A DNA stretch of 35,479 nt. Source: a virus. Location: UHGV virus genome UHGV-0144289, one strand, 5' to 3'. This document shows, piece by piece, positions 151 to 14,042 of the stretch. Every line of letters begins with the position of its first letter. Position 1 is the stretch's first letter. A model generated the notes under the pieces. The model was not told the origin of the DNA and did not search any database. It saw nothing but the letters and a program-made list of their open reading frames with translations. Both the position numbers and the translations under genes were made by a program.

Positions 151-226
<76 letters not shown>

Positions 227-279
227 GTTTAAAAGGCATCGGCGTCAGCGGATGTCTGGCTGAAAGGCCTGAAGAATTT

Positions 280-353
280 GGCGCGTTAACAAAGCGGTTA
301 TGTAGCGGATTGCAAATCCGTCTAGTCCGGTTCGACTCCGGAACGCGCCTCCA
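280..353 (+). tRNA. cysT: tRNA-Cys (anticodon GCA)
   Basis: 74-nt sequence GGCGCGTTAACAAAGCGGTTATGTAGCGGATTGCAAATCCGTC...GCGCCTCCA with GCA anticodon in the loop TTGCAAATC; T-arm GGTTCGACTCC; encoded CCA. Confidence 0.95.
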
Positions 354-365
354 CTTTCTTCCCGA

Positions 366-452
366 GCCCGGATGGTGGAATCGGTAGACACAAGGGATTT
401 AAAATCCCTCGGCGTTCGCGCTGTGCGGGTTCAAGTCCCGCTCCGGGTACCA
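366..452 (+). tRNA. leuZ: tRNA-Leu (anticodon UAA), long variable arm
   Basis: 87-nt sequence GCCCGGATGGTGGAATCGGTAGACACAAGGGATTTAAAATCCC...GGGTTCAAGTCCCGCTCCGGGTACCA; class II tRNA with extra arm, anticodon TAA, encoded CCA. Confidence 0.95.
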
Positions 453-4985: not shown

Positions 4986-5309
4986 TTAAAACGGTACGTC
5001 GCTTTCTTCAATTGGAGAGTGATCGATGCACAGCAGCTGCTGAATCTGGTCTTCAATAACACCCAGCTCCTTCTTTGCTTCGGCAGAGATTTTCTCTTTC
5101 TTCGCACGAAGGGCATTAACCTGCATACCAATAATGTCGATTGGCTCTAAAGCTGGAATGGCAACCTCTACCGTTTTGGTAGTAACGAGGACATACAGAT
5201 CAGGGTATTGCTGTGACATGTCACAGGTGAATGAGTGATAAGACGTTGGTAGATATGGTTTGGTTGTGGCCATAACGTAAATAGTTACGGGGATGGTAAG
5301 CGCTTCCAT
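4986..5309 (-). CDS. Hypothetical protein, first gene of the leftward early operon
   Basis: 107-aa ORF with RBS AAGGAG 7 nt upstream of the ATG; no domain recognised. Confidence 0.6.
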   Translation of the reverse strand: MEALTIPVTIYVMATTKPYLPTSYHSFTCDMSQQYPDLYVLVTTKTVEVAIPALEPIDIIGMQVNALRAKKEKISAEAKKELGVIEDQIQQLLCIDHSPIEESDVPF

Positions 5310-5333
5310 AGCGACTCCTTGATGATATATACT

Positions 5334-5452
5334 CAGAGCCGATCAGCGGCTCTGTCGTTGGTCTTTCCTCGCTACAGGGTTGGTCCCCTGTAGCATTCTG
5401 GGCGGTTTGGTCACTGTCCCGGGTAAATTAGCCCACTTCGGTGGGCTTTTTT
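5334..5452 (+). ncRNA. Candidate small antisense RNA in the early-left leader (speculative)
   Basis: Possible extended -10 (TGATATATA, ~5323-5331), then two strong hairpins (5334-5354 and 5371-5394) and a textbook intrinsic terminator on the plus strand (AGCCCAC-TTCG-GTGGGCT plus six T, 5430-5452). No plus-strand gene exists here. Confidence 0.25.
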
Positions 5453-5527
5453 ACGCCTGAAGGTTGCCGGTCTTTCCCGGCTGTCAGGGTGGTCAGCCCC
5501 ATTGGTCTTTCCTCGTTACTGCGTGAA

Positions 5528-5560
5528 TGCTTTAAAAAAATGCCCGGGGCGCCCGGGCCA
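5528..5560 (-). terminator. Intrinsic terminator on the minus strand within the early-left leader
   Basis: On the minus strand: GC-rich hairpin GCCCGGGCGCCCCGGGC followed by TTTTTTT. Lies between the putative PL promoter and the first early-left gene, implying an antitermination requirement. Confidence 0.5.
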
Positions 5561-5748
5561 AGACTACACACAGCAATTCGTATTCGTTGCGGTCTTTCCC
5601 GCATGTCATCGTACTGTCGGCGACCCGAAGAATTCGCGCCCGTCTTTCCGGACTGTCAGAACTGTTTCTGAACAACTGCCGCGTGGTTAGTGCGTCTTTG
5701 ATGTGGTGAAGCATAACCAAAGGTATTTTTATTGGCAATGTTTTTTAC

Positions 5749-5760
5749 TAACAAAAGTTA
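5749..5760. promoter_or_regulatory. Operator-type site TAAC-AAAA-GTTA next to the putative leftward early promoter
   Basis: Same TAAC-N4-GTTA dyad as the two sites in the repressor/cro intergenic region. Confidence 0.45.
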
Positions 5761-5767
5761 ATATTAG

Positions 5768-5805
5768 AGGTGTAAAAAAAGGCAATGCATTGAAAACATT
5801 GCCTT
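5768..5805 (-). terminator. Terminator downstream of the repressor gene (hairpin AGGCAATG...CATTGCCT flanked by A/T runs on both sides; potentially bidirectional)
   Basis: 8-bp perfect stem with a poly-T tract on the minus strand immediately after the repressor stop. Confidence 0.5.
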
Positions 5806-5809
5806 TAAT

Positions 5810-6223
5810 TTATTTTTTTGGAGTGTTTTTTTTCTTTTTTACCAAAAGTAACTCATCAAACAATCGCTGGAATCCGTCAACTTTATCTTTCAACTCATTG
5901 ATATGTCTATCTTTTTCTGATTCAGGTAGAGAATCAAAAAGATCAAGCAGTAGCTTTTGGCGATCATCTAACCGAGGTAAAAGCTCTTCTGCCTTCAACG
6001 GTTCATCGCTATCGGTACCGTTAAGTAACCATGTCGGAGAGCAACGAAGAGCCTCAGCGAGAGAAAACAGATTTTGCCCTTTTGGGGTGTTAATACCTGC
6101 TTCCCACTTGTAAACGCTGACGCCAGATATGCCAACGGCATCGGCGAGCTGCTGTTGTGTCAAACCAAGCTCTTTCCGTCTCGATGTAATGCGATCGTTA
6201 AAGGTCAATTTTTTCATATCCAT
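5810..6223 (-). CDS. Prophage repressor, XRE-family helix-turn-helix protein with no recognisable autocleavage (peptidase S24-like) domain
   Basis: 137 aa; N-terminal HTH (LTQQQLADAVGISGVSVYKWEAG); divergent from the cro-like gene across an operator region; the C-terminal part is acidic/coiled-coil with a lysine tail and shows no LexA/cI-type catalytic signature. Confidence 0.8.
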   Translation of the reverse strand: MDMKKLTFNDRITSRRKELGLTQQQLADAVGISGVSVYKWEAGINTPKGQNLFSLAEALRCSPTWLLNGTDSDEPLKAEELLPRLDDRQKLLLDLFDSLPESEKDRHINELKDKVDGFQRLFDELLLVKKKKNTPKK

Positions 6224-6291: not shown

Positions 6292-6489
6292 ATGAAGACC
6301 GAAACTGTTATCAGATTTTTTGGAACTAAAACCGCTGTTGCGCGTGCATTAGGTATCTCTCAAGTCGCTGTAACCCGCTGGGGGACTGTTGTTCCTGAAA
6401 AGCGAGCTGCGCGACTTGAGCATGTAACCGCGGGCGCCTTGAAGTACGACCCTACTTTTTACGAAGAGCAAAACACGTCTAAAGCATAA
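6292..6489 (+). CDS. Cro-like / YdaS-like small HTH regulator
   Basis: 65 aa; HTH (TKTAVARALGISQVAVTRW); first gene of the rightward early operon, RBS AGGAGAGG. Confidence 0.7.
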   Translation: MKTETVIRFFGTKTAVARALGISQVAVTRWGTVVPEKRAARLEHVTAGALKYDPTFYEEQNTSKA

Positions 6490-6551: not shown

Positions 6552-6998
6552 GTGGAATACCTCGAAGAACTTAAACGAGAGATCTTTAACTGGGCAGCGG
6601 AAAGCGGGCAGGAGCTGGTTGCTATCGAGATAAGCCGCATGTGGTTTCGTCTTGGTGGTAATACCGGTTCGCTGAAGCTGCACCAGATCGAAGATGCAGA
6701 TGGAAACGCCGACTGGCGGGCAATCAACAACAACCGCCAACAAATTTTTCGTTGGTTGCGAGGCGAGACCAAAGCCGCGAGAGCCAAAACTCTGGCGCTG
6801 GTCAAAGCGATGGAAGCGGCGCTGCCGGCAGAACGTTACGCGCGCTTGGGTATGTCCACCCAGTATTTAATTTGTGTGGCCATTCGTGAGTTTGCCGCGG
6901 CGATTATCGCGTTATTACTCGACGCCAGAGACGGGCCGCAGCAAGTCGCCAGAGCATTGCAAGCTATGCGAGAAACACAGCGCCTGACCAGCGTTTAA
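6552..6998 (+). CDS. YdaT-like (CII-like) regulatory protein
   Basis: 148 aa, GTG start with RBS AGGAGA; position after the cro-like gene and the motif RWLRGETKAARAK are reminiscent of the Rac-prophage YdaT family (from memory). Confidence 0.45.
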   Translation: MEYLEELKREIFNWAAESGQELVAIEISRMWFRLGGNTGSLKLHQIEDADGNADWRAINNNRQQIFRWLRGETKAARAKTLALVKAMEAALPAERYARLGMSTQYLICVAIREFAAAIIALLLDARDGPQQVARALQAMRETQRLTSV

Positions 6999-7242: not shown

Positions 7243-8235
7243 ATGAATATTTTGCCATTACTCGACAGGCCGATCGCCTTCCAGCGCAGTTTTATTCGTC
7301 TGGATATTGGTGTGACGGCTGCGCTGTTTCTATCACAAATGACCTACTGGACTAACCGGTCCGACGATGACGGATGGGTGTATAAAACTCAGGAAGAATG
7401 GGAAGAAGAAACCGGCCTTTCCCGCTATGAGCAGGAGGGGGCGCGTAAGAAACTCCGCTCAATTGGTGTACTACTGGAAAAAAGAAAAGGCGTTCCTGCG
7501 CGACTTTTCTACAAAGTAGATAATAACGTTTTATATCAGGTGCTTGCAGCTGCAAACAAGAATGCGGAAAAACCACATACTGGAATGCGGAAAACCACCA
7601 AACAAGTCAGGGGAAAACCAGCAAACTTTCTTACAGAGAATACTACAGAGAATATATATACCCCTAACCCCTTAGAGGAGGAAGGCGTTGAGTTAATTCT
7701 TTCTGATGCACAAAAAGCGCTGGAATTTTACAACGAGCAAACCGGTACCCGCTGCCGTGACCTGAAACCGTTTGTGATGATGCTGACGCCGACCACCACC
7801 CGGGAAGGGTACACACTGGACGAATTGCAGTTAGTTATCCGCTGGGTGCTGGCCACATGGCGCCGCCGTGGCGATAGCCTGCCGAAGCCAGCGAACATCT
7901 GCCGGGTAAACCGCTTTGATGGTTATCTCGCTGACGCTGAAGCATGGGCGGTGACCGAAACCGATATTGATCCGGAAGCCGTTATGAACGGCTACAACGA
8001 AATTTTTGCTGATGTTCTGCCCGCTGCTGAATTGGACACAGACCGCCGCCGGATGATCACCCGTCTGGCCGCCCATATGAAAAACAAAACCACGGGCGCA
8101 TTTCTGGGCTATTTCGAAAAATTCCGCGCTGACGCCTCCGATTTTTACTTTGGTGAAAATGGCGGATGGCGCGCCAGCTTTGACTACCTGATGAAGCCTG
8201 AAACATTGCGTAAAACTCGTGAGGGATCGCTATGA
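7243..8235 (+). CDS. Phage replication initiation / replisome organiser protein
   Basis: 330 aa; N-terminal winged-helix-like domain; directly upstream of and overlapping the helicase gene by 4 nt, the usual O/P-type arrangement. Confidence 0.6.
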   Translation: MNILPLLDRPIAFQRSFIRLDIGVTAALFLSQMTYWTNRSDDDGWVYKTQEEWEEETGLSRYEQEGARKKLRSIGVLLEKRKGVPARLFYKVDNNVLYQVLAAANKNAEKPHTGMRKTTKQVRGKPANFLTENTTENIYTPNPLEEEGVELILSDAQKALEFYNEQTGTRCRDLKPFVMMLTPTTTREGYTLDELQLVIRWVLATWRRRGDSLPKPANICRVNRFDGYLADAEAWAVTETDIDPEAVMNGYNEIFADVLPAAELDTDRRRMITRLAAHMKNKTTGAFLGYFEKFRADASDFYFGENGGWRASFDYLMKPETLRKTREGSL

Positions 8236-9620
8236 CTCCGCAGGAACTGGAATCTTGTGTACTGGCTGGACTGCTGAACGGTGGAGCAAGTCCGGACGCT
8301 TTCGACGTGATCGCATCGACGCCTGAAGAATCATTCAGCATTGTTTTTCATCGTCGCGCCTTCTCGGAAATCAAAAAACAGGCGTTGACGAACGGTCTGA
8401 TCGATATGCTGTTTGTCAGTGAGGCTCTGGGAGGGAGTAGCCTGGCTGATTTATCAGAGATTTCGCGTATGCCCGCCACGGTACCAAACCTGAAAGGTTA
8501 CGCCGGGAAAATGGTGAAGGCGTGGCGCAGCCGCCGTATGGCTGAATTACTGCAAAATGGTGCTGATGGTATCCGCCAGGCGAATAATCAGGAGCAGCGC
8601 GATGAGATTGTCGAAACTGCCGTGGCGCAGCTGCTGGACATGACCGGCGACACTGGCGACGTGCAGCCGGTACACATGAGCGAATTATTGCCGGTGTACA
8701 TGGAAACCATGCAGAAGCGCATGGACGGCGAAGAGGGTACTCGCAACCTGAAAACCGGGATCGAGGAACTTGACGATGCGACCGGCGGAATCAACCTGCA
8801 GGATTTGATTGTCGTCGCTGGGCGTCCGGGCATGGGAAAAACAGAATTTGCGCTGAAGATTGTCGATGGTGTTACCGCTGCTGGCGGTGGCGCGTTGATA
8901 TTCAGCATGGAAATGGCCGCTGCGCAAATCGTAGAACGCGCTCTAGCGGGTTCTGGCAACATGTCAGTGTCACGCCTGCGTAATCCCCTCGATATGCAGG
9001 ACGAGGACTGGGCGCGCTTTACAGCGGCCATGGAGACCATGAACGGGCGCGATATCTGGATCGTTGATGCTACCGATCTGACGATTGAGCAAATCCGCGC
9101 CGTTGCCGAAACGCATAAGCGCCGGTATCCGCATCTGGCGATGATCGTTGTCGATTACCTTGGCCTGATTAAAAAACCGAAGGCAGAGCGTAACGACCTC
9201 GCGATCGCCCACATATCCCGAAACTTAAAAACTATGGCTATGCGCCTGCATACGCCGACGTTCGCGCTTAGCCAGCTTTCCCGCGCCGTGGATTCCCGCC
9301 CGGCGGCCCAGCGCCGCCCGGTCATGTCAGACCTGCGCGATTCCGGTTCCATTGAGCAGGACGCCGACAGCATCATGTTTCTGTACCGCGATGAGGTTTA
9401 CAACCCGGAAAGCCCGGCGGCTGGCGTCGCTGAAATTATCCTGGGTAAAAGCCGCTTCAGCGCCGCAGGCGCAATTATTTATCAGGAATTTAAAAACGGA
9501 CACTTTCTGTCAATGGATCAGCATGTTGGCAAAGAGAAAACACGTATCCAACTGGAGGCCGCGAAACCCCGGAAACAACCCCGTAAATACTCAGAGAAAT
9601 TCAATACCGATGCATTTTAA
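8232..9620 (+). CDS. Replicative DNA helicase, DnaB family
   Basis: 462 aa; Walker A GRPGMGKTEF, and DnaB signatures VVDYLGLIK, LSQLSRAVDSR, SGSIEQDADSIMFLYRDEVY. Confidence 0.9.
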   Translation: MTPQELESCVLAGLLNGGASPDAFDVIASTPEESFSIVFHRRAFSEIKKQALTNGLIDMLFVSEALGGSSLADLSEISRMPATVPNLKGYAGKMVKAWRSRRMAELLQNGADGIRQANNQEQRDEIVETAVAQLLDMTGDTGDVQPVHMSELLPVYMETMQKRMDGEEGTRNLKTGIEELDDATGGINLQDLIVVAGRPGMGKTEFALKIVDGVTAAGGGALIFSMEMAAAQIVERALAGSGNMSVSRLRNPLDMQDEDWARFTAAMETMNGRDIWIVDATDLTIEQIRAVAETHKRRYPHLAMIVVDYLGLIKKPKAERNDLAIAHISRNLKTMAMRLHTPTFALSQLSRAVDSRPAAQRRPVMSDLRDSGSIEQDADSIMFLYRDEVYNPESPAAGVAEIILGKSRFSAAGAIIYQEFKNGHFLSMDQHVGKEKTRIQLEAAKPRKQPRKYSEKFNTDAF

Positions 9621-9658: not shown

Positions 9659-10327
9659 ATGACCACGAATTTAAATTACCCAAAACCAGTAAAACCGGAT
9701 GATGGCTGCAACTGGCTCCCCGTTATTCTCTGGCGCATGAATGCCGGTGCGCGCGCCCGTAGCCGTTCCGTGTTCGTAGCGGCGCCACGTCCGGCCCCTG
9801 TACCAGGCATCACCCCGCAAAAACCGATTAAGCGAGAAATTATCGCCCCTACGGTTTCCGGCCGCAGGCGTAAAACCCACATCGGCACCGTGATTTATTC
9901 CAGAGGTGAAAAAAGCGTTCGCCTTAGCGAAGGCGCGACTGTCTGGTCTGCTGGCTCAAATGAGCATTTCGATAAAAAAACGGGCCAGCGCGTCGGCAGT
10001 ATTGGTCGTCACCGTCTGGTGCTGGAGAGTATCCGCCCATTGCAGGCCAGCGACGCACAACAGGACGCCGGGAGCGTCACCGCGCAGCAACTGGTAGCCG
10101 TGATGAAAGGCAAAACGCTTTCTTACCAGGGCATTCTGGCATTAATCCAGAAGCACTATCCCGATTGTCAGGTGACGACTAAAGAACTTCACGATCGCGT
10201 GTTCGGCATGTTCATGTCGAATTACGTGGGTATCACCCGTCACGACGATATGCCGGTGGTTCACTTCACGCTTAACAGCGTCGATCCCCGTTATTACATC
10301 GAGTCAGCGAAGAACAAGAGGGCATAA
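9659..10327 (+). CDS. Hypothetical protein (no recognised domain)
   Basis: 222 aa; ATG preceded by GAGGAAAGACCA and a conserved upstream block GCGCCTGACCAGCG. Confidence 0.6.
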   Translation: MTTNLNYPKPVKPDDGCNWLPVILWRMNAGARARSRSVFVAAPRPAPVPGITPQKPIKREIIAPTVSGRRRKTHIGTVIYSRGEKSVRLSEGATVWSAGSNEHFDKKTGQRVGSIGRHRLVLESIRPLQASDAQQDAGSVTAQQLVAVMKGKTLSYQGILALIQKHYPDCQVTTKELHDRVFGMFMSNYVGITRHDDMPVVHFTLNSVDPRYYIESAKNKRA

Positions 10328-11320: not shown

Positions 11321-11551
11321 ATGAAAAACACTATTCAGGATTTAATGAATCACCAGTTCGCCATGCTGGAAACCGTCACCGATCCCAATATCAAAGGCGA
11401 CCTGCTTCAGGAAGAGTTATCGAGGGCTAAAGCGGTAGTGGAAATCGTCGGGGTGATGGTCGGTACTTATCGAGTTGCGCTCGACGCCCAGAAGGCTATT
11501 TATGACGGTACCGCAGGCAATGTACCTAAGATTATGGGGATCGAAAAATGA
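11321..11551 (+). CDS. Hypothetical small protein
   Basis: 76-aa ORF with start 2 nt after the methyltransferase stop. Confidence 0.5.
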   Translation: MKNTIQDLMNHQFAMLETVTDPNIKGDLLQEELSRAKAVVEIVGVMVGTYRVALDAQKAIYDGTAGNVPKIMGIEK

Positions 11552-12165
11552 TAGAGAAATACACTCCAGCCCAGGAGTTGTTTATCAAGCAGCATATTAA
11601 AAGCTCCACTGCGCGGGAATTAACTGAAATGTTTAACGCTAAATTTGGTACAAATAAGAGCGTGGGCGCTATTCGTATCTGGTGCAAATCTCATGGGTTA
11701 GGAAAGCAGTTTTTAATTGAGCCGCGCTATTCCGATGAGCAGCTGACTTTCATTTATGCCAATAGGAATCTAACGAATGCTGAACTTACAGAAAGGTTCA
11801 ACAGGAGATTCGGTACCGATAAAAAACCTGACAATATCAAGGATGTAAAGATAGCTCGCGGATGGACACGCGAACCTAAAGGCCGGAAACGCATTCTTCC
11901 ACAGTACATCACTGTTAATAAAGAGAAAATTAGACTCGATGTATACGTATATGAATGCGTACATGGAAAATTACCGTCTGGTTATTCGGTTATCCATCTG
12001 GATAATGATTTGAATAACAACAATATCAATAATCTACGCGCGGCACCTAAAGAAATACGCCGCCTGTTCTCTGGGGCGGGCTACTCAAAAATGCCGCAGG
12101 TTCTTGCTCCGGCGCTGTATGCACAAGTTATGCTCCGCCATGCAATTAAACGATTATCCAGCTAA
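11548..12165 (+). CDS. HNH homing-type endonuclease with two N-terminal DNA-binding repeats
   Basis: 205 aa; duplicated ~45-aa module (ELTEMFNAKFGTNKSVGAIRIW / ELTERFNRRFGTDKKPDNIKDVKIARGW) and HNH core VHGKLPSGYSVIHLDNDLNNNNINNL; markedly AT-rich compared with its neighbours. Confidence 0.75.
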   Translation: MIEKYTPAQELFIKQHIKSSTARELTEMFNAKFGTNKSVGAIRIWCKSHGLGKQFLIEPRYSDEQLTFIYANRNLTNAELTERFNRRFGTDKKPDNIKDVKIARGWTREPKGRKRILPQYITVNKEKIRLDVYVYECVHGKLPSGYSVIHLDNDLNNNNINNLRAAPKEIRRLFSGAGYSKMPQVLAPALYAQVMLRHAIKRLSS

Positions 12166-12177
12166 CTGAGGTGGTTA

Positions 12178-12516
12178 ATGGCTAAATCATCCGCAGAACG
12201 TAAAGCCGCGCAGAGGGCGCGGCAATCTGCCGCCGGCAACCGCAAAATTGAGCTGGTTCTCGATACGCAGGAACTGGACATGCTGGCGCATAACTGCGCC
12301 GCCCGGCGTCCGGGGCGTGAACCGTACGAACTGGCCGAGTACATCGCTATGCTGATCCGTCAGGATGATGCGCGGCTTAGTGGCCACATCAAATCGATCA
12401 GCAAACGTCTGTGTAGAAAATGCGGTGAGACGCTGCCGATCACCTCCTGCCCGTGTGCTGGTGATTCGCAATGCTGGGTAACGCGAGGGTGGCACGAAAC
12501 CAAACTGTCAGCATAG
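12178..12516 (+). CDS. Hypothetical protein with C-terminal cysteine cluster
   Basis: 112 aa; basic N-terminus, C-terminal CRKCGETLPITSCPCAGDSQC suggests a small zinc-binding element. Confidence 0.55.
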   Translation: MAKSSAERKAAQRARQSAAGNRKIELVLDTQELDMLAHNCAARRPGREPYELAEYIAMLIRQDDARLSGHIKSISKRLCRKCGETLPITSCPCAGDSQCWVTRGWHETKLSA

Positions 12517-12539: not shown

Positions 12540-12568
12540 AGAACCGTCAGAAATGGCGGTTTTCTTTT
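12540..12568 (+). terminator. Weak terminator-like hairpin after the 112-aa gene
   Basis: AACCG...CGGTT stem followed by TTCTTTTG; large loop, so weak. Confidence 0.3.
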
Positions 12569-12658
12569 GAATTCAATCGGATATTTTGAGATTTATTGTT
12601 GATTTTTAACGATTCGTGCTCTTAAAAATTTGCGCTCACTGTCAGTTGGTAGTATATA

Positions 12659-12678
12659 TACTGTAATTTTATACAGTA
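12659..12678. promoter_or_regulatory. LexA binding site (SOS box) TACTGTAATTTTATACAGTA
   Basis: Perfect CTGT-N8-ACAG dyad with flanking TA, matching the enterobacterial SOS-box consensus; located ~20 nt upstream of the RBS of the next small gene and overlapping a probable -10 (TATATA). Confidence 0.8.
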
Positions 12679-12698
12679 TTGTTGTTGAGGGAGAGGTA

Positions 12699-12890
12699 GT
12701 GGTTGATAAGAAAGACGCAGGAGACCTTCTCCCCGACGATGGTGATGTACTGATAACGTGTGAAAATGGGAAGATTAAGAAGACCAGAATTGTCCATTCC
12801 GATGAGCACGTAGCGACACTTAACGCGTTGTTTGAATTAGCTAAATTGACGGGTTATACCATTATCAAACCAGACGGCAATATGCTATAA
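12699..12890 (+). CDS. Small SOS-regulated protein, candidate antirepressor
   Basis: 63 aa from GTG at 12699 (RBS GAGGGAGAGG); the longer TTG-initiated frame from 12630 would run through the promoter/operator and is less plausible; AT-rich island. Confidence 0.5.
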   Translation: MVDKKDAGDLLPDDGDVLITCENGKIKKTRIVHSDEHVATLNALFELAKLTGYTIIKPDGNML

Positions 12891-12958: not shown

Positions 12959-13555
12959 ATGGCGCAGTATTCTTTTGTAAAAGCACCCGGCGGTGTATTA
13001 ATTCCGGCAACGCCTGACGCCCGCGAATTCTTAGAAAAAAAAGTCCGCATGGGCGGTATTCTGTATGCGGATTTTAAACAGGCAAGGAACTCGGCATTTC
13101 ACCGTAAATTTTTTGCCCTCCTGAATCTGGGATTTGATTACTGGCAACCTTCCGGCGGTGCAATATCGCCAGCCGATAAAAAACTGGTTCGGGGTTACGT
13201 GCAGCTGGTGGCCCACTATGCCGGGCATGGCGACACATTGCAGGAACTGGCGGATCAGTATCTGCGCGATGAGGCAGAAAAACGCGCCGGCAATATCAGC
13301 GCGGTTAAATCGTTTGAAGCTTTCCGTTCCTGGGTAACTATCGAGGCCGGTTTTTATACCGAATACCAGATGCCTGATGGCACCACCCGCAAGGAACCCA
13401 AATCCATATCGTTCGCAAAAATGGACGATGTAGAATTTTCCCAGCTGTACAAATCCGTATTAGACGTCCTCTGGAATTTTATTTTATTCCGCACCTTCCC
13501 TAATCAGCAGGCAGCAGAAAACGCAGCCTCTCAGCTTTTCAGTTATGCGGCCTGA
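12959..13555 (+). CDS. DUF1367-like phage protein
   Basis: 198 aa; resembles the conserved lambdoid nin-region protein family (MAQYSFVKAPGG...FHRKFFALLNLGF) as I recall it. Confidence 0.6.
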   Translation: MAQYSFVKAPGGVLIPATPDAREFLEKKVRMGGILYADFKQARNSAFHRKFFALLNLGFDYWQPSGGAISPADKKLVRGYVQLVAHYAGHGDTLQELADQYLRDEAEKRAGNISAVKSFEAFRSWVTIEAGFYTEYQMPDGTTRKEPKSISFAKMDDVEFSQLYKSVLDVLWNFILFRTFPNQQAAENAASQLFSYAA

Positions 13556-13565
13556 GGCGGACACT

Positions 13566-14042
13566 ATGAAATTCAATATTCGCTCTCATATCGTCGAGAT
13601 GGATGAGGCCGACGCCTTGATCTTTGTGGGTTACCCCATCCACATCGGCTCGAATGGTTATGCAAAAGTCACCGGCTGGCATTTTGGCAAGGAAAGATAC
13701 CTTCATCGCGTCATCATGAATGCGGGGCCTCATGATGTTGTAGATCACATTGATGGTAATAAGCTCAACTGCACCCGCTCAAATCTGAGGATCTGCACAC
13801 AGGCCGACAATACCAAAAATGTGGGCTTGAGGAGTGACAATAGCTCAGGAATTCCGGGAATTTACTGGGTATCCACTCGCCTAAAATGGGCGGCGCAAAT
13901 TTCAGTTGATGGCAGGACCGTTAGTTTAGGCCGCTTTGATGAAATTGCCGATGCTATCAATGCCCGCCGGAAAGCAGAAGATTTGTATTACGGGGAGTTT
14001 GCAGCCAGCAAGGGGGTGCTTTGTGAAAAAGCGCGCCAGTAA
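13566..14042 (+). CDS. HNH endonuclease with AP2-like DNA-binding domain
   Basis: 158 aa from the ATG at 13566 (RBS GAGG); HNH core HRVIMNAGPHDVVDHIDGNKLNCTRSNLRICTQADN followed by AP2-like segment GIPGIYWVSTRLKWAAQISVDGRTVSLGRFDEIADA. Confidence 0.75.
   Translation: MKFNIRSHIVEMDEADALIFVGYPIHIGSNGYAKVTGWHFGKERYLHRVIMNAGPHDVVDHIDGNKLNCTRSNLRICTQADNTKNVGLRSDNSSGIPGIYWVSTRLKWAAQISVDGRTVSLGRFDEIADAINARRKAEDLYYGEFAASKGVLCEKARQ

What the first reader, a model, noticed from the sequence alone, without database searches (positions are those of the whole stretch)
12590..12890. Canonical SOS box controlling a small orphan gene, with a repressor that shows no autocleavage domain: candidate antirepressor induction circuit
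TACTGTAATTTTATACAGTA (12659-12678) is a perfect CTGT-N8-ACAG LexA site overlapping a probable promoter, ~20 nt upstream of a 63-aa ORF in an AT-rich island. The prophage repressor (5810-6223) has an HTH but no recognisable LexA/cI-type autocleavage domain. In Gifsy-type Salmonella prophages and coliphage 186, uncleavable repressors are inactivated by small LexA-controlled antirepressors encoded far from the immunity region. This locus has exactly that logic, and the 63-aa protein has no obvious family, so it may be an undescribed antirepressor.
Basis: partly seen in the sequence, partly recalled or inferred. Interest (0 to 1): 0.7.

Follow-up and report, generated by a model that had tools for sequence, protein, structure and literature searches.

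The report
SOS-controlled prophage antirepressor, known family
A strong LexA (SOS) operator does control a 63-residue prophage gene, and that gene is an unannotated relative of the known small antirepressors GfoA, FsoA and Rem, so this is a new example of the Gifsy-type way of waking a prophage after DNA damage, not a new mechanism.

Summary
TACTGTAATTTTATACAGTA lies at 12659-12678 and is the only LexA-quality site in the 35-kb window: 25.5 bits, against 9.8 for the next best site. It sits just after a conserved promoter and 20 nt before a GTG-initiated 63-aa ORF (12699-12890). A CTGT-N8-ACAG box is present at this position in all 57 homologous loci examined, although the flanks diverge.

The repressor (5810-6223, minus strand) is a full-length DicA-family protein: 44% identical to E. 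coli DicA and 33% to Gifsy-2 GtgR. It has an HTH domain and no Peptidase_S24 domain.

The claim that the protein has no obvious family and may be undescribed is not. The 63-aa protein falls in PHROG 340 together with Gifsy-1 GfoA. BLASTP gives E 2e-7 against GfoA and 7e-8 against Fels-1 FsoA. A profile built from its own relatives scores FsoA 49.5, GfoA 34.0 and Rem (the validated DicA antirepressor) 25.4 bits. The gene occupies the slot that gftA and gfoA occupy, directly upstream of the irsA/DUF1367 homologue. It differs from Gifsy in having no dinI gene.

Verdict: a new member of a known kind (Lemire et al. 2011). Near-identical copies accompany seven heteroimmune repressor types that share a C-terminal module, which hints at broad cross-induction.

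The parts
12540..12573 (+). Intrinsic terminator-like hairpin with a T-run. It closes the early-right transcription unit after the 112-aa ORF (12178-12516).
   Evidence: a 10-pair stem at 12540-12563 followed by CTTTTGAATT. Lemire 2011 describes the same layout, a terminator just before the LexA-controlled promoter, in the Gifsy prophages, and it is visible in Gifsy-2.
12630..12658 (+). Inferred sigma-70 promoter: -35 TTGCGC (12630-12635), a 17-bp spacer, and -10 TATATA (12653-12658).
   Evidence: The TTG of the -35 and the TA of the -10 are invariant across 42 distinct upstream sequences (sequences). The consensus scanner did not call this promoter, because the -35 matches only 3 of 6 positions. 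It is therefore inferred from conservation and from its position next to the operator.
12659..12678 (.). LexA operator (SOS box) TACTGTAATTTTATACAGTA. It abuts the -10 and covers the expected transcription start.
   Evidence: 25.5 bits; the only site in the window above random expectation; a CTGT-N8-ACAG box at this position in all 57 homologous loci. ACTGT and TATACAGT are invariant while the flanks vary.
12690..12696 (+). Shine-Dalgarno sequence GGAGAGG.
   Evidence: G-rich equivalents are present at this position in all homologous loci.
12699..12890 (+). 63-aa small antirepressor gene with a GTG start. It belongs to the GfoA/FsoA/Rem family (PHROG 340).
   Evidence: PHROG 340 at E 4.7e-23. 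GfoA hits the same PHROG at 7.6e-21. BLASTP against GfoA gives E 2e-7 and against FsoA 7e-8. Profile scores are FsoA 49.5, GfoA 34.0 and Rem 25.4 bits. The AF2 model shows a beta-hairpin plus a helix at pLDDT 68.
12959..13555 (+). DUF1367 gene, the homologue of Gifsy irsA. It is probably co-transcribed with the antirepressor gene.
   Evidence: Pfam DUF1367 at 1.2e-83. It is 56% identical to Gifsy-2 STM1020, the irsA homologue. It lies immediately downstream in every homologous locus with downstream sequence (55 of 56; L056 ends before the gene). No terminator was found between the two genes.
5810..6223 (-). Prophage repressor of 137 aa, DicA family. It has an N-terminal HTH and a C-terminal helical module (residues ~86-129: LLLDLFDSLPESEKDRHINELKDKVDGFQRLFDELL). 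It has no S24 autocleavage domain. It is the presumed target of the antirepressor.
   Evidence: NCBIfam NF007257 (DicA) at 152.6 bits against a cutoff of 101, covering positions 1-133 of 135. Pfam finds only HTH families above their curated cut-offs and no Peptidase_S24. It is 44% identical to E. coli DicA at E 6e-40 and 33% identical to GtgR at E 1e-12.
6292..6489 (+). Cro/YdaS-like regulator, divergent from the repressor gene.
   Evidence: phrog_409, transcriptional regulator, at 4.7e-24.
6552..6998 (+). YdaT/CII-like gene, which completes a Rac/Qin-type immunity region.
   Evidence: Pfam YdaT_toxin at 3e-21. phrog_163, CII-like, at 4.3e-39.

Best explanation
This is the SOS-induction module of a lambdoid Klebsiella-type prophage, and it works like the Gifsy prophages of Salmonella. 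During lysogeny host LexA binds the operator at 12659-12678, which abuts the -10 of a dedicated promoter, and keeps a 63-aa gene silent. A terminator upstream insulates that promoter. DNA damage leads to LexA self-cleavage, and the 63-aa protein is then made. Like its homologues GfoA, FsoA and Rem, it binds the prophage's short, non-cleavable DicA-type repressor (5810-6223) and removes it from its operators, which starts lytic transcription. What is shown here: the operator, its conservation, the gene, its homology to characterised antirepressors, the synteny, and the repressor type. What is inferred: LexA binding in vivo, the physical interaction between antirepressor and repressor, and the conserved C-terminal module of the repressor as the contact surface.
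For: Operator: 25.5 bits and unique in the window; present in all 57 homologous loci while the flanks diverge. Homology: the 63-aa protein and GfoA both fall in PHROG 340. BLASTP gives E 2e-7 against GfoA and 7e-8 against FsoA. A profile built only from relatives of the window protein scores FsoA 49.5, GfoA 34.0 and Rem 25.4 bits. I identified GfoA, FsoA and GftA from the primer sequences in Lemire 2011 Table S1. Synteny: Gifsy-2 and Gifsy-1 carry terminator, LexA box, dinI, gftA/gfoA, irsA. The window carries terminator, LexA box, the 63-aa gene, and an irsA homologue that is 56% identical. All three small genes use non-ATG starts. Repressor: DicA family with no S24 domain. DicA is inactivated by Rem (PMC10448788), and GtgR, GfoR and GfhR are inactivated by GftA, FsoA and GfoA without being cleaved (PMC3121763). 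Association: 44 of the 45 homologous loci in which the repressor gene could be identified carry short HTH-only DicA-like repressors. Domain fusions: the same domain forms the C-terminus of KilA-N, P22_AR_N and Rha-type 'Ant' proteins.
Against: There is no experimental evidence for this protein or this prophage. Identity to the characterised members is only 33-34% over 44-52 residues. GftA itself is not significantly related by profile comparison. Copies of the small protein that are at least 95% identical occur with 7 of the 8 repressor types, so there is no sign of pairwise co-evolution. One homologous locus (L059) pairs the module with an S24-type repressor, so the module does not strictly require an uncleavable repressor. 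FsoA shows that a family member can be dispensable for induction of its own phage. The AF2 model is of only moderate confidence, and no solved structure matches it.
Confidence: 0.8

Rival explanations
1. The 63-aa protein is a genuine antirepressor of this family, but like FsoA of Fels-1 it is not the trigger for its own prophage. It would act mainly in trans on the repressors of other resident prophages, or only modulate the timing of induction.
For: FsoA is dispensable for Fels-1 induction and acts on the Gifsy-2 repressor (PMC3121763). Variants of the small protein assort independently of repressor type. Locus L059 combines the module with an S24-type, presumably self-cleaving, repressor.
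Against: In this window the resident repressor has no autocleavage domain, and no other LexA site or antirepressor candidate was found in the window, although ORFs beyond about 15,000 were not searched against any family library. Without this gene the prophage would have no visible route to SOS induction. FsoA is controlled by the phage repressor, not by LexA, whereas this gene has a strong LexA box.
Confidence: 0.1
2. The small SOS-induced protein has a different job, for example modulating RecA like DinI, inhibiting cell division, acting as a toxin, or acting in recombination together with the DUF1367 product. On this view the repressor is inactivated by some other route.
For: PHROG 340 is annotated 'unknown function', and neither Pfam nor NCBIfam has a model that matches. 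The gene is probably co-transcribed with DUF1367/NinB-like genes.
Against: The protein has significant sequence similarity to three experimentally validated antirepressors. The domain is fused to classical Ant N-terminal domains. DinI did not appear among the Pfam or PHROG hits for the protein, and the protein shows no similarity to Tum.
Confidence: 0.06
3. The LexA-like palindrome is a chance AT-rich sequence, or the ORF is not a real gene.
For: The region is AT-rich. The consensus promoter scan did not call the promoter.
Against: The site scores 25.5 bits, against a maximum of 18.5 in 200 random windows. The box is invariant in all 57 homologous loci (42 distinct upstream sequences aligned), while the flanks diverge. 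The ORF is conserved at 67-100% identity with an intact frame, and a whole-library HMM search found 59 cluster representatives.
Confidence: 0.01
4. The repressor is RecA-cleavable after all, so the small gene is irrelevant to induction.
For: An Ala-Gly dipeptide exists at residues 41-42 (WEAGIN; sequence).
Against: That Ala-Gly lies inside the HTH domain, not in a linker. The protein is 137 aa long and has no Peptidase_S24 match, whereas Pfam readily detects S24 in the L059 repressor, which serves as a positive control. It aligns end to end with DicA, which lacks the cleavage site (PMC10448788), and its homologues GtgR, GfoR and GfhR were shown not to be cleaved.
Confidence: 0.02

Closest known systems
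Gifsy-1/Gifsy-3 antirepressors GfoA/GfhA with repressors GfoR/GfhR (Salmonella; Lemire, Figueroa-Bossi & Bossi 2011, PMC3121763)
   Same: It shares a protein family with GfoA: PHROG 340, and BLASTP at 33% identity over 52 aa with E 2e-7. It is also a small protein with a non-ATG start. The promoter carries a LexA box and is preceded by a terminator. The gene lies immediately upstream of the irsA/DUF1367 gene and several kb to the right of the immunity region. The repressor is short and HTH-only.
   Different: There is no dinI gene between the operator and the antirepressor gene. The box is 20 nt from the start codon here, against about 390 nt in the Gifsy-1-type loci. The protein is 63 aa against 82 aa and lacks the N-terminal ~25 residues of GfoA. 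The host is a Klebsiella-group bacterium. The function has not been tested.
FsoA of Fels-1, which inactivates the Gifsy-2 repressor GtgR
   Same: FsoA is the best-scoring characterised relative: 34% identity over 44 aa with E 7e-8, and 49.5 bits against the family profile. It shares the LP..G.V....ENG.....R....DEH...L.....A...G motif. Its target GtgR is 33% identical to the window repressor and shares the C-terminal LF..LPE.EK motif.
   Different: fsoA lies in the left operon of Fels-1 and is controlled by the cleavable repressor FsoR, not by LexA. It is not needed for induction of its own phage.
Rem/DicA of the E. coli K-12 cryptic prophage Qin (Ragunathan et al. 2023, PMC10448788)
   Same: The window repressor is a DicA-family member (44% identity over the full length). 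Rem is a validated DicA antirepressor and matches the family profile at 25.4 bits.
   Different: Rem is 83 aa and has an extra, apparently duplicated, hairpin segment. Pairwise similarity to the 63-aa protein is weak (E 0.019). dicBp is not induced by mitomycin C in K-12, so the SOS link is absent or lost there.
GftA of Gifsy-2
   Same: It has the same genomic slot and the same GTG start, and the predicted pattern of a hairpin followed by a helix is similar. Lemire et al. align GftA with GfoA and FsoA.
   Different: GftA belongs to a different PHROG (4847). BLASTP finds nothing, hhalign gives E 0.21, and the family profile scores it at only 6.2 bits.
Tum of coliphage 186 and AntC of N15
   Same: The circuit logic is the same: a LexA-repressed promoter drives an antirepressor of a non-cleavable repressor. 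The operator-to-start geometry is nearly the same as at p95 of 186: TACTGTATGTTTATACAGTA, then 18 nt, then GTG.
   Different: There is no sequence relationship (BLASTP E 11; 1.3 bits). Tum is 146 aa and its C-terminal half is DinI-like. AntC was not tested here.
Large Ant/KilA-N/Rha-type antirepressors such as P22 Ant
   Same: The 63-aa domain occurs as the C-terminal domain of proteins whose N-terminal domains are P22_AR_N, KilA-N or Phage_pRha.
   Different: Here the domain stands alone. P22 Ant itself was not compared.

Membership tests
GfoA/GfhA/FsoA/Rem small prophage antirepressors (PHROG 340) | Significant sequence similarity to experimentally characterised members | tested here: met
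   PHROG 340 at E 4.7e-23, against 7.6e-21 for GfoA. BLASTP E 2e-7 for GfoA and 7e-8 for FsoA. Profile scores are FsoA 49.5, GfoA 34.0 and Rem 25.4 bits.
GfoA/GfhA/FsoA/Rem small prophage antirepressors (PHROG 340) | Small single-domain protein of about 60-85 aa | tested here: met
   63 aa. Family representatives are mostly 55-75 aa.
GfoA/GfhA/FsoA/Rem small prophage antirepressors (PHROG 340) | Binds the cognate repressor in a stable complex and releases it from DNA | not testable with these tools
   This needs co-purification, EMSA or two-hybrid experiments. Only single-chain structure prediction was available.
Gifsy-type SOS induction module (LexA-controlled antirepressor plus non-cleavable repressor) | A LexA operator overlaps the promoter of the antirepressor transcription unit | tested here: met
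   25.5-bit box abutting the -10. It is conserved in all 57 homologous loci. LexA binding itself was not tested.
Gifsy-type SOS induction module (LexA-controlled antirepressor plus non-cleavable repressor) | The module lies outside the immunity region, downstream of the replication genes, preceded by a terminator and followed by irsA (DUF1367) | tested here: met
   The module is 6.4 kb from the repressor gene. The terminator is at 12540-12573. The DUF1367 gene is 56% identical to the Gifsy-2 irsA homologue. Replication genes lie at 7243-9620.
Gifsy-type SOS induction module (LexA-controlled antirepressor plus non-cleavable repressor) | A short repressor of about 130-155 aa of the GfoR/GtgR/DicA/RacR type that lacks the S24 autocleavage domain | tested here: met
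   137 aa; NF007257 (DicA) at 152.6 bits; no Peptidase_S24 match, with L059 as a positive control for detecting S24; 44% identical to DicA and 33% to GtgR.
Gifsy-type SOS induction module (LexA-controlled antirepressor plus non-cleavable repressor) | [quoted passage not shown] | tested here: not met
   The box lies 20 nt upstream of the antirepressor start codon and no ORF intervenes. This is a difference in composition, not in mechanism.
Tum/DinI-fusion antirepressors of 186-like (P2-family) phages | Sequence similarity to Tum, including the DinI-like C-terminal half | tested here: not met
   BLASTP E 11; 1.3 bits against the family profile.
LexA/CI-type self-cleaving repressors (the test applied to the window's repressor) | A C-terminal Peptidase_S24 domain with a Ser/Lys dyad, and an Ala-Gly or Cys-Gly site in a linker | tested here: not met
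   No S24 hit at E<=0.1. The only Ala-Gly is inside the HTH (residues 41-42). The C-terminal 50 residues align with the DicA helical module.

The most novel reading that the evidence does not exclude
One conserved, LexA-controlled antirepressor may serve as a master key for many heteroimmune Klebsiella prophages. Copies of the 63-aa protein that are at least 95% identical are found with 7 of 8 repressor types. The DNA-binding domains of those repressors differ (mean pairwise identity 38%, and some are barely alignable), but their C-terminal LF..LPESEK...GF..LFEELL modules are conserved (mean 55%). If the antirepressor docks on that shared module, SOS induction of one prophage would cross-induce every DicA-type prophage in a polylysogen. 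The same domain at the C-terminus of KilA-N, P22_AR_N and Rha 'Ant' proteins would then be their repressor-binding module.
Probability: 0.35. Interest if true: 0.45.

Novelty: new member of a known kind. Interest (0 to 1): 0.3.

Why it matters
The finding explains how this prophage, and at least 56 related Klebsiella/Raoultella-type prophages, can respond to DNA-damaging antibiotics even though their repressor cannot cleave itself. It also supports a concrete annotation fix. PHROG 340, and the 'hypothetical protein' entries at this position, can be named GfoA/FsoA/Rem-family antirepressors. The associated HTH-only repressors can be recognised as DicA/GtgR-type and antirepressor-dependent. The mechanism itself has been known since 2011, so the result is confirmatory. 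The modest new angle is that the antirepressor assorts independently of repressor type. That predicts broad cross-induction among heteroimmune prophages through a shared C-terminal repressor module.

Tried and rejected
- Direct BLASTP of the 63-aa protein against GftA found nothing. hhalign of the two shallow family alignments was not significant (E 0.21). Homology to GftA specifically therefore remains unproven.
- Pfam and NCBIfam gave no family for the 63-aa protein. One homologue carries a precomputed PF27490.1 tag, which is absent from the local Pfam copy, so I could not name it.
- The nucleotide and tblastn searches of the phage collection returned only two annotated phages, Stenotrophomonas phages BUCT708 and BUCT709, and both annotate the gene as hypothetical.
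- The genome-contig scan returned only one true locus. IMG/VR was far richer.
- A PDB sequence search with the family profile found nothing credible. The AF2 model (pLDDT 68) searched with Foldseek against the PDB gave no hit with E<=0.001.
- Tum of phage 186 is unrelated.
- The second CTGT-N8-ACAG match, at 5211-5226, is not LexA-like by PWM.
- The consensus promoter scan did not call the SOS promoter. I inferred the promoter from conservation instead.
- Rfam found only the three tRNAs.
- The exact 3' primer of gfoA (le163) matched IMG/VR alleles at only 38 of 40 positions. The GfoA sequence used here is therefore a near-identical allele, identified by an exact match to the 5' primer and by its dinI-gfoA-irsA context.

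Full report
**1. The observation**

The 20-mer TACTGTAATTTTATACAGTA lies at 12659-12678. CTGT-N8-ACAG occurs twice in the window, against 0.24 expected.

I scored the window with a position weight matrix built from 20 E. coli SOS boxes that I recalled from memory. This is not the published heterology index.
- The site scores 25.5 bits, which would rank third among the 20 training boxes (13.4-29.3 bits).
- The next best site in the 35-kb window scores 9.8 bits.
- In 200 Markov-1 random windows the maximum score averaged 10.8 bits and never exceeded 18.5.
- So this is the single LexA-quality site in the prophage. The other CTGT-N8-ACAG match (5211-5226) does not appear among the twelve best sites.

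The 63-aa ORF runs from GTG 12699 to 12890, and GGAGAGG lies at 12690-12696. The longer 86-aa ORF from TTG 12630 would read through the promoter and operator, and it is not conserved. The region has 35-43% GC, against 54-61% just upstream. An intrinsic terminator-like hairpin at 12540-12563 with a T-run precedes the module.

**2. Conservation**

An HMM-guided scan of IMG/VR and of representative genomes, plus the phage-collection hit BUCT708 (L001), gave 58 loci that encode a 67-100% identical protein. One further hit, a 40%-identical partial match in a Flavobacteriaceae MAG (L004), was not analysed.
- Every locus with upstream sequence (57, giving 51 distinct upstream sequences over 170 bases) has one CTGT-N8-ACAG box at the same place, between a TATA(A/T)A -10 and the G-rich ribosome-binding site.
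- I aligned the 42 distinct sequences of the 120 bases upstream of the start codon. The TTG of the -35, the TA of the -10, ACTGT and TATACAGT are invariant, while the flanks vary.
- One locus has ATG in place of GTG at the proposed start codon.
- I therefore place the promoter at -35 TTGCGC (12630-12635), a 17-bp spacer, and -10 TATATA (12653-12658). The consensus scanner missed it because the -35 matches only 3 of 6 positions.

**3. The repressor**

ORF 5810-6223 on the minus strand encodes 137 aa.
- Pfam finds only HTH families above their curated cut-offs and no Peptidase_S24 at E<=0.1.
- NCBIfam places it end to end in the DicA family (NF007257, 152.6 bits against a cutoff of 101).
- It is 44% identical to E. 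coli K-12 DicA over the full length (E 6e-40).
- Its only Ala-Gly lies inside the HTH.
- A Cro/YdaS-like gene (6292-6489) and a YdaT/CII-like gene (6552-6998) complete a Rac/Qin-type immunity region.

The rest of the window matches a lambdoid-style prophage. It carries an integrase next to three tRNA genes, a Gam-like gene, an exonuclease, an O-like initiator, a DnaB-like helicase and a methyltransferase, followed by the nin-like region and structural genes.

**4. What the 63-aa protein is**

It has no Pfam or NCBIfam family. It hits PHROG 340 ('unknown function') at 4.7e-23, and it hits the C-terminus of an 'anti-repressor' PHROG weakly.

The key reference is Lemire et al. 2011 (PMC3121763). 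In Gifsy prophages the uncleavable repressors GfoR, GfhR and GtgR are inactivated by the small proteins GfoA, GfhA and GftA. These are encoded in a LexA-controlled operon, dinI-antirepressor-irsA, which lies about 1.3 kb downstream of the replication genes and is preceded by a terminator. FsoA of Fels-1 is a homologue that acts on GtgR.

I recovered the three proteins from the primer sequences in the paper's Table S1.
- GftA is Gifsy-2 11464-11685.
- A GfoA allele came from IMG/VR loci that contain the exact 5' primer sequence, in a dinI-gfoA-irsA context with a LexA box 389 nt upstream.
- FsoA came from Fels-1, and both its N- and C-termini match the primers.

The comparisons gave these results.
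- GfoA also belongs to PHROG 340 (7.6e-21).
- BLASTP of the window protein against GfoA gives 33% identity over 52 aa at E 2e-7.
- BLASTP against FsoA gives 34% identity over 44 aa at E 7e-8.

An HMM of the window protein's close relatives, searched against 1.84 billion cluster representatives, found 59 representatives. A profile rebuilt from those hits gave the scores below.

| Protein | Score (bits) |
|---|---|
| FsoA | 49.5 |
| GfoA | 34.0 |
| Rem | 25.4 |
| GftA | 6.2 |
| Tum of phage 186 | 1.3 |

Rem is the Qin-prophage protein shown in 2023 to relieve DicA repression; it was found by PSI-BLAST starting from GfoA and FsoA (PMC10448788). The shared motif is LP..G.v.i..eNG.i...R.l.DEh...l...iela...GY.i.

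Some family members carry this domain at the C-terminus of proteins with KilA-N, P22_AR_N or Phage_pRha N-terminal domains. These are classical Ant-type architectures.

**5. Synteny**

The window's DUF1367 gene (12959-13555) is 56% identical to the Gifsy-2 irsA homologue. It follows the small gene in every related locus with downstream sequence (55 of 56). The intergenic sequence after the stop codon (TGGCCTGAACA.C) is also shared with Gifsy-2, Gifsy-1-type loci and a Klebsiella phage that carries a GftA homologue. So the 63-aa gene occupies the gftA/gfoA slot.

The differences from Gifsy are these.
- There is no dinI gene. The operator is 20 nt from the start codon, against about 390 nt in the Gifsy-1-type loci.
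- The protein is shorter, because it lacks the N-terminal ~25 residues of GfoA.

The operator-to-start geometry is almost the same as at p95 of phage 186, but Tum is unrelated in sequence.

**6. Mechanism**

What the data here show:
- a strong, conserved LexA operator at the promoter;
- a conserved small gene that is homologous to three validated antirepressors;
- a DicA/GtgR-type repressor with no autocleavage domain;
- Gifsy-like synteny.

What is inferred:
- LexA represses the promoter until SOS induction.
- The protein then binds the repressor and releases it from DNA.

I put this at 0.8.

**7. A further pattern**

The repressor gene could be identified in 45 related loci.
- 44 of them encode short DicA-like repressors, and Pfam scans of a representative of each of the eight types, including the window's, found only HTH domains and no Peptidase_S24.
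- One locus, L059, encodes an HTH plus Peptidase_S24 repressor. This also serves as a positive control that Pfam detects S24 in this setting.
- Among the eight types the N-terminal HTH region averages 38% pairwise identity (minimum 18%). The C-terminal module (window residues 86-129) averages 55%.
- Small proteins at least 95% identical to the window's occur with 7 of the 8 types.

So the antirepressor and the DNA-binding specificity assort independently. This fits the trans-acting cross-talk described by Lemire et al. It suggests, but does not show, that the conserved C-terminal module is the docking surface. It also leaves room for the rival reading that some copies act mainly in trans.

**8. 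Structure**

AF2 run on the 20-sequence alignment gives a model of moderate confidence (pLDDT 68). It shows a beta-hairpin at residues 17-31, a helix at 41-51 and a short C-terminal strand. Neither the Foldseek search of the PDB nor the PDB sequence search found a relative.

**9. Verdict**

The protein is not an orphan. It is an unannotated member of the GfoA/FsoA/Rem antirepressor family, in a dinI-less version of the Gifsy SOS module, paired with a DicA-family repressor. I classify it as a new member of a known kind, with interest 0.3. A search of the held literature found no paper that describes this circuit in Klebsiella prophages.

Noticed in passing
window 5211-5226: A perfect 16-bp palindrome, CTGTGACATGTCACAG, lies inside the conserved ORF 4986-5309 (minus strand, phrog_2479, unknown function), left of the immunity region. 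It matches CTGT-N8-ACAG but is not LexA-like by PWM. Its role is unknown.
   Followed up: partly
window 151-452 and 583-1599: A tRNA-Gly(GCC), tRNA-Cys(GCA), tRNA-Leu(TAA) cluster lies directly next to the prophage integrase gene (minus strand). The attachment site is probably at or near the tRNA-Leu 3' end.
   Followed up: partly
window 11548-12165 and 13545-14042: Two HNH endonuclease genes bracket the SOS module. Whether they are present, and where, varies among the related loci, which suggests mobile insertions in the nin-like region.
   Followed up: partly
window 5310-5809: A stretch of about 500 bp between the phrog_2479 gene and the repressor gene has no convincing ORF. It is conserved in at least one other locus (L059 2439-2770). 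There is no Rfam hit. It could hold a regulatory element, a small RNA or a small gene.
   Followed up: no
window 12178-12516: A 112-aa ORF (phrog_536, 'transcriptional regulator') with a Cys-rich C-terminus (CRKCG...CPC) ends just before the terminator that precedes the SOS promoter. It is present in most but not all related loci.
   Followed up: no
L059 2870-3646 (minus strand) and 9977-10186: One related prophage combines the same LexA-box and small-antirepressor module with an HTH plus Peptidase_S24 repressor of the self-cleaving type. This mosaic resembles Fels-1, which carries both FsoR and FsoA.
   Followed up: partly
proteins P0072, P0086, P0101, P0085, P0077, P0088: The PHROG 340 domain also occurs fused to KilA-N, P22_AR_N or Rha N-terminal domains. 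In some proteins of 120-240 aa it matches in two separate stretches. This links the small Gifsy-type antirepressors to the large Ant-type proteins.
   Followed up: partly
L061 2390-2683 (Klebsiella phage ST16-OXA48phi5.1): A GftA homologue (PHROG 4847) sits upstream of DUF1367 in a Klebsiella phage, and I saw no LexA box in the 200 nt upstream. So both antirepressor families occupy the same slot in Klebsiella phages.
   Followed up: no
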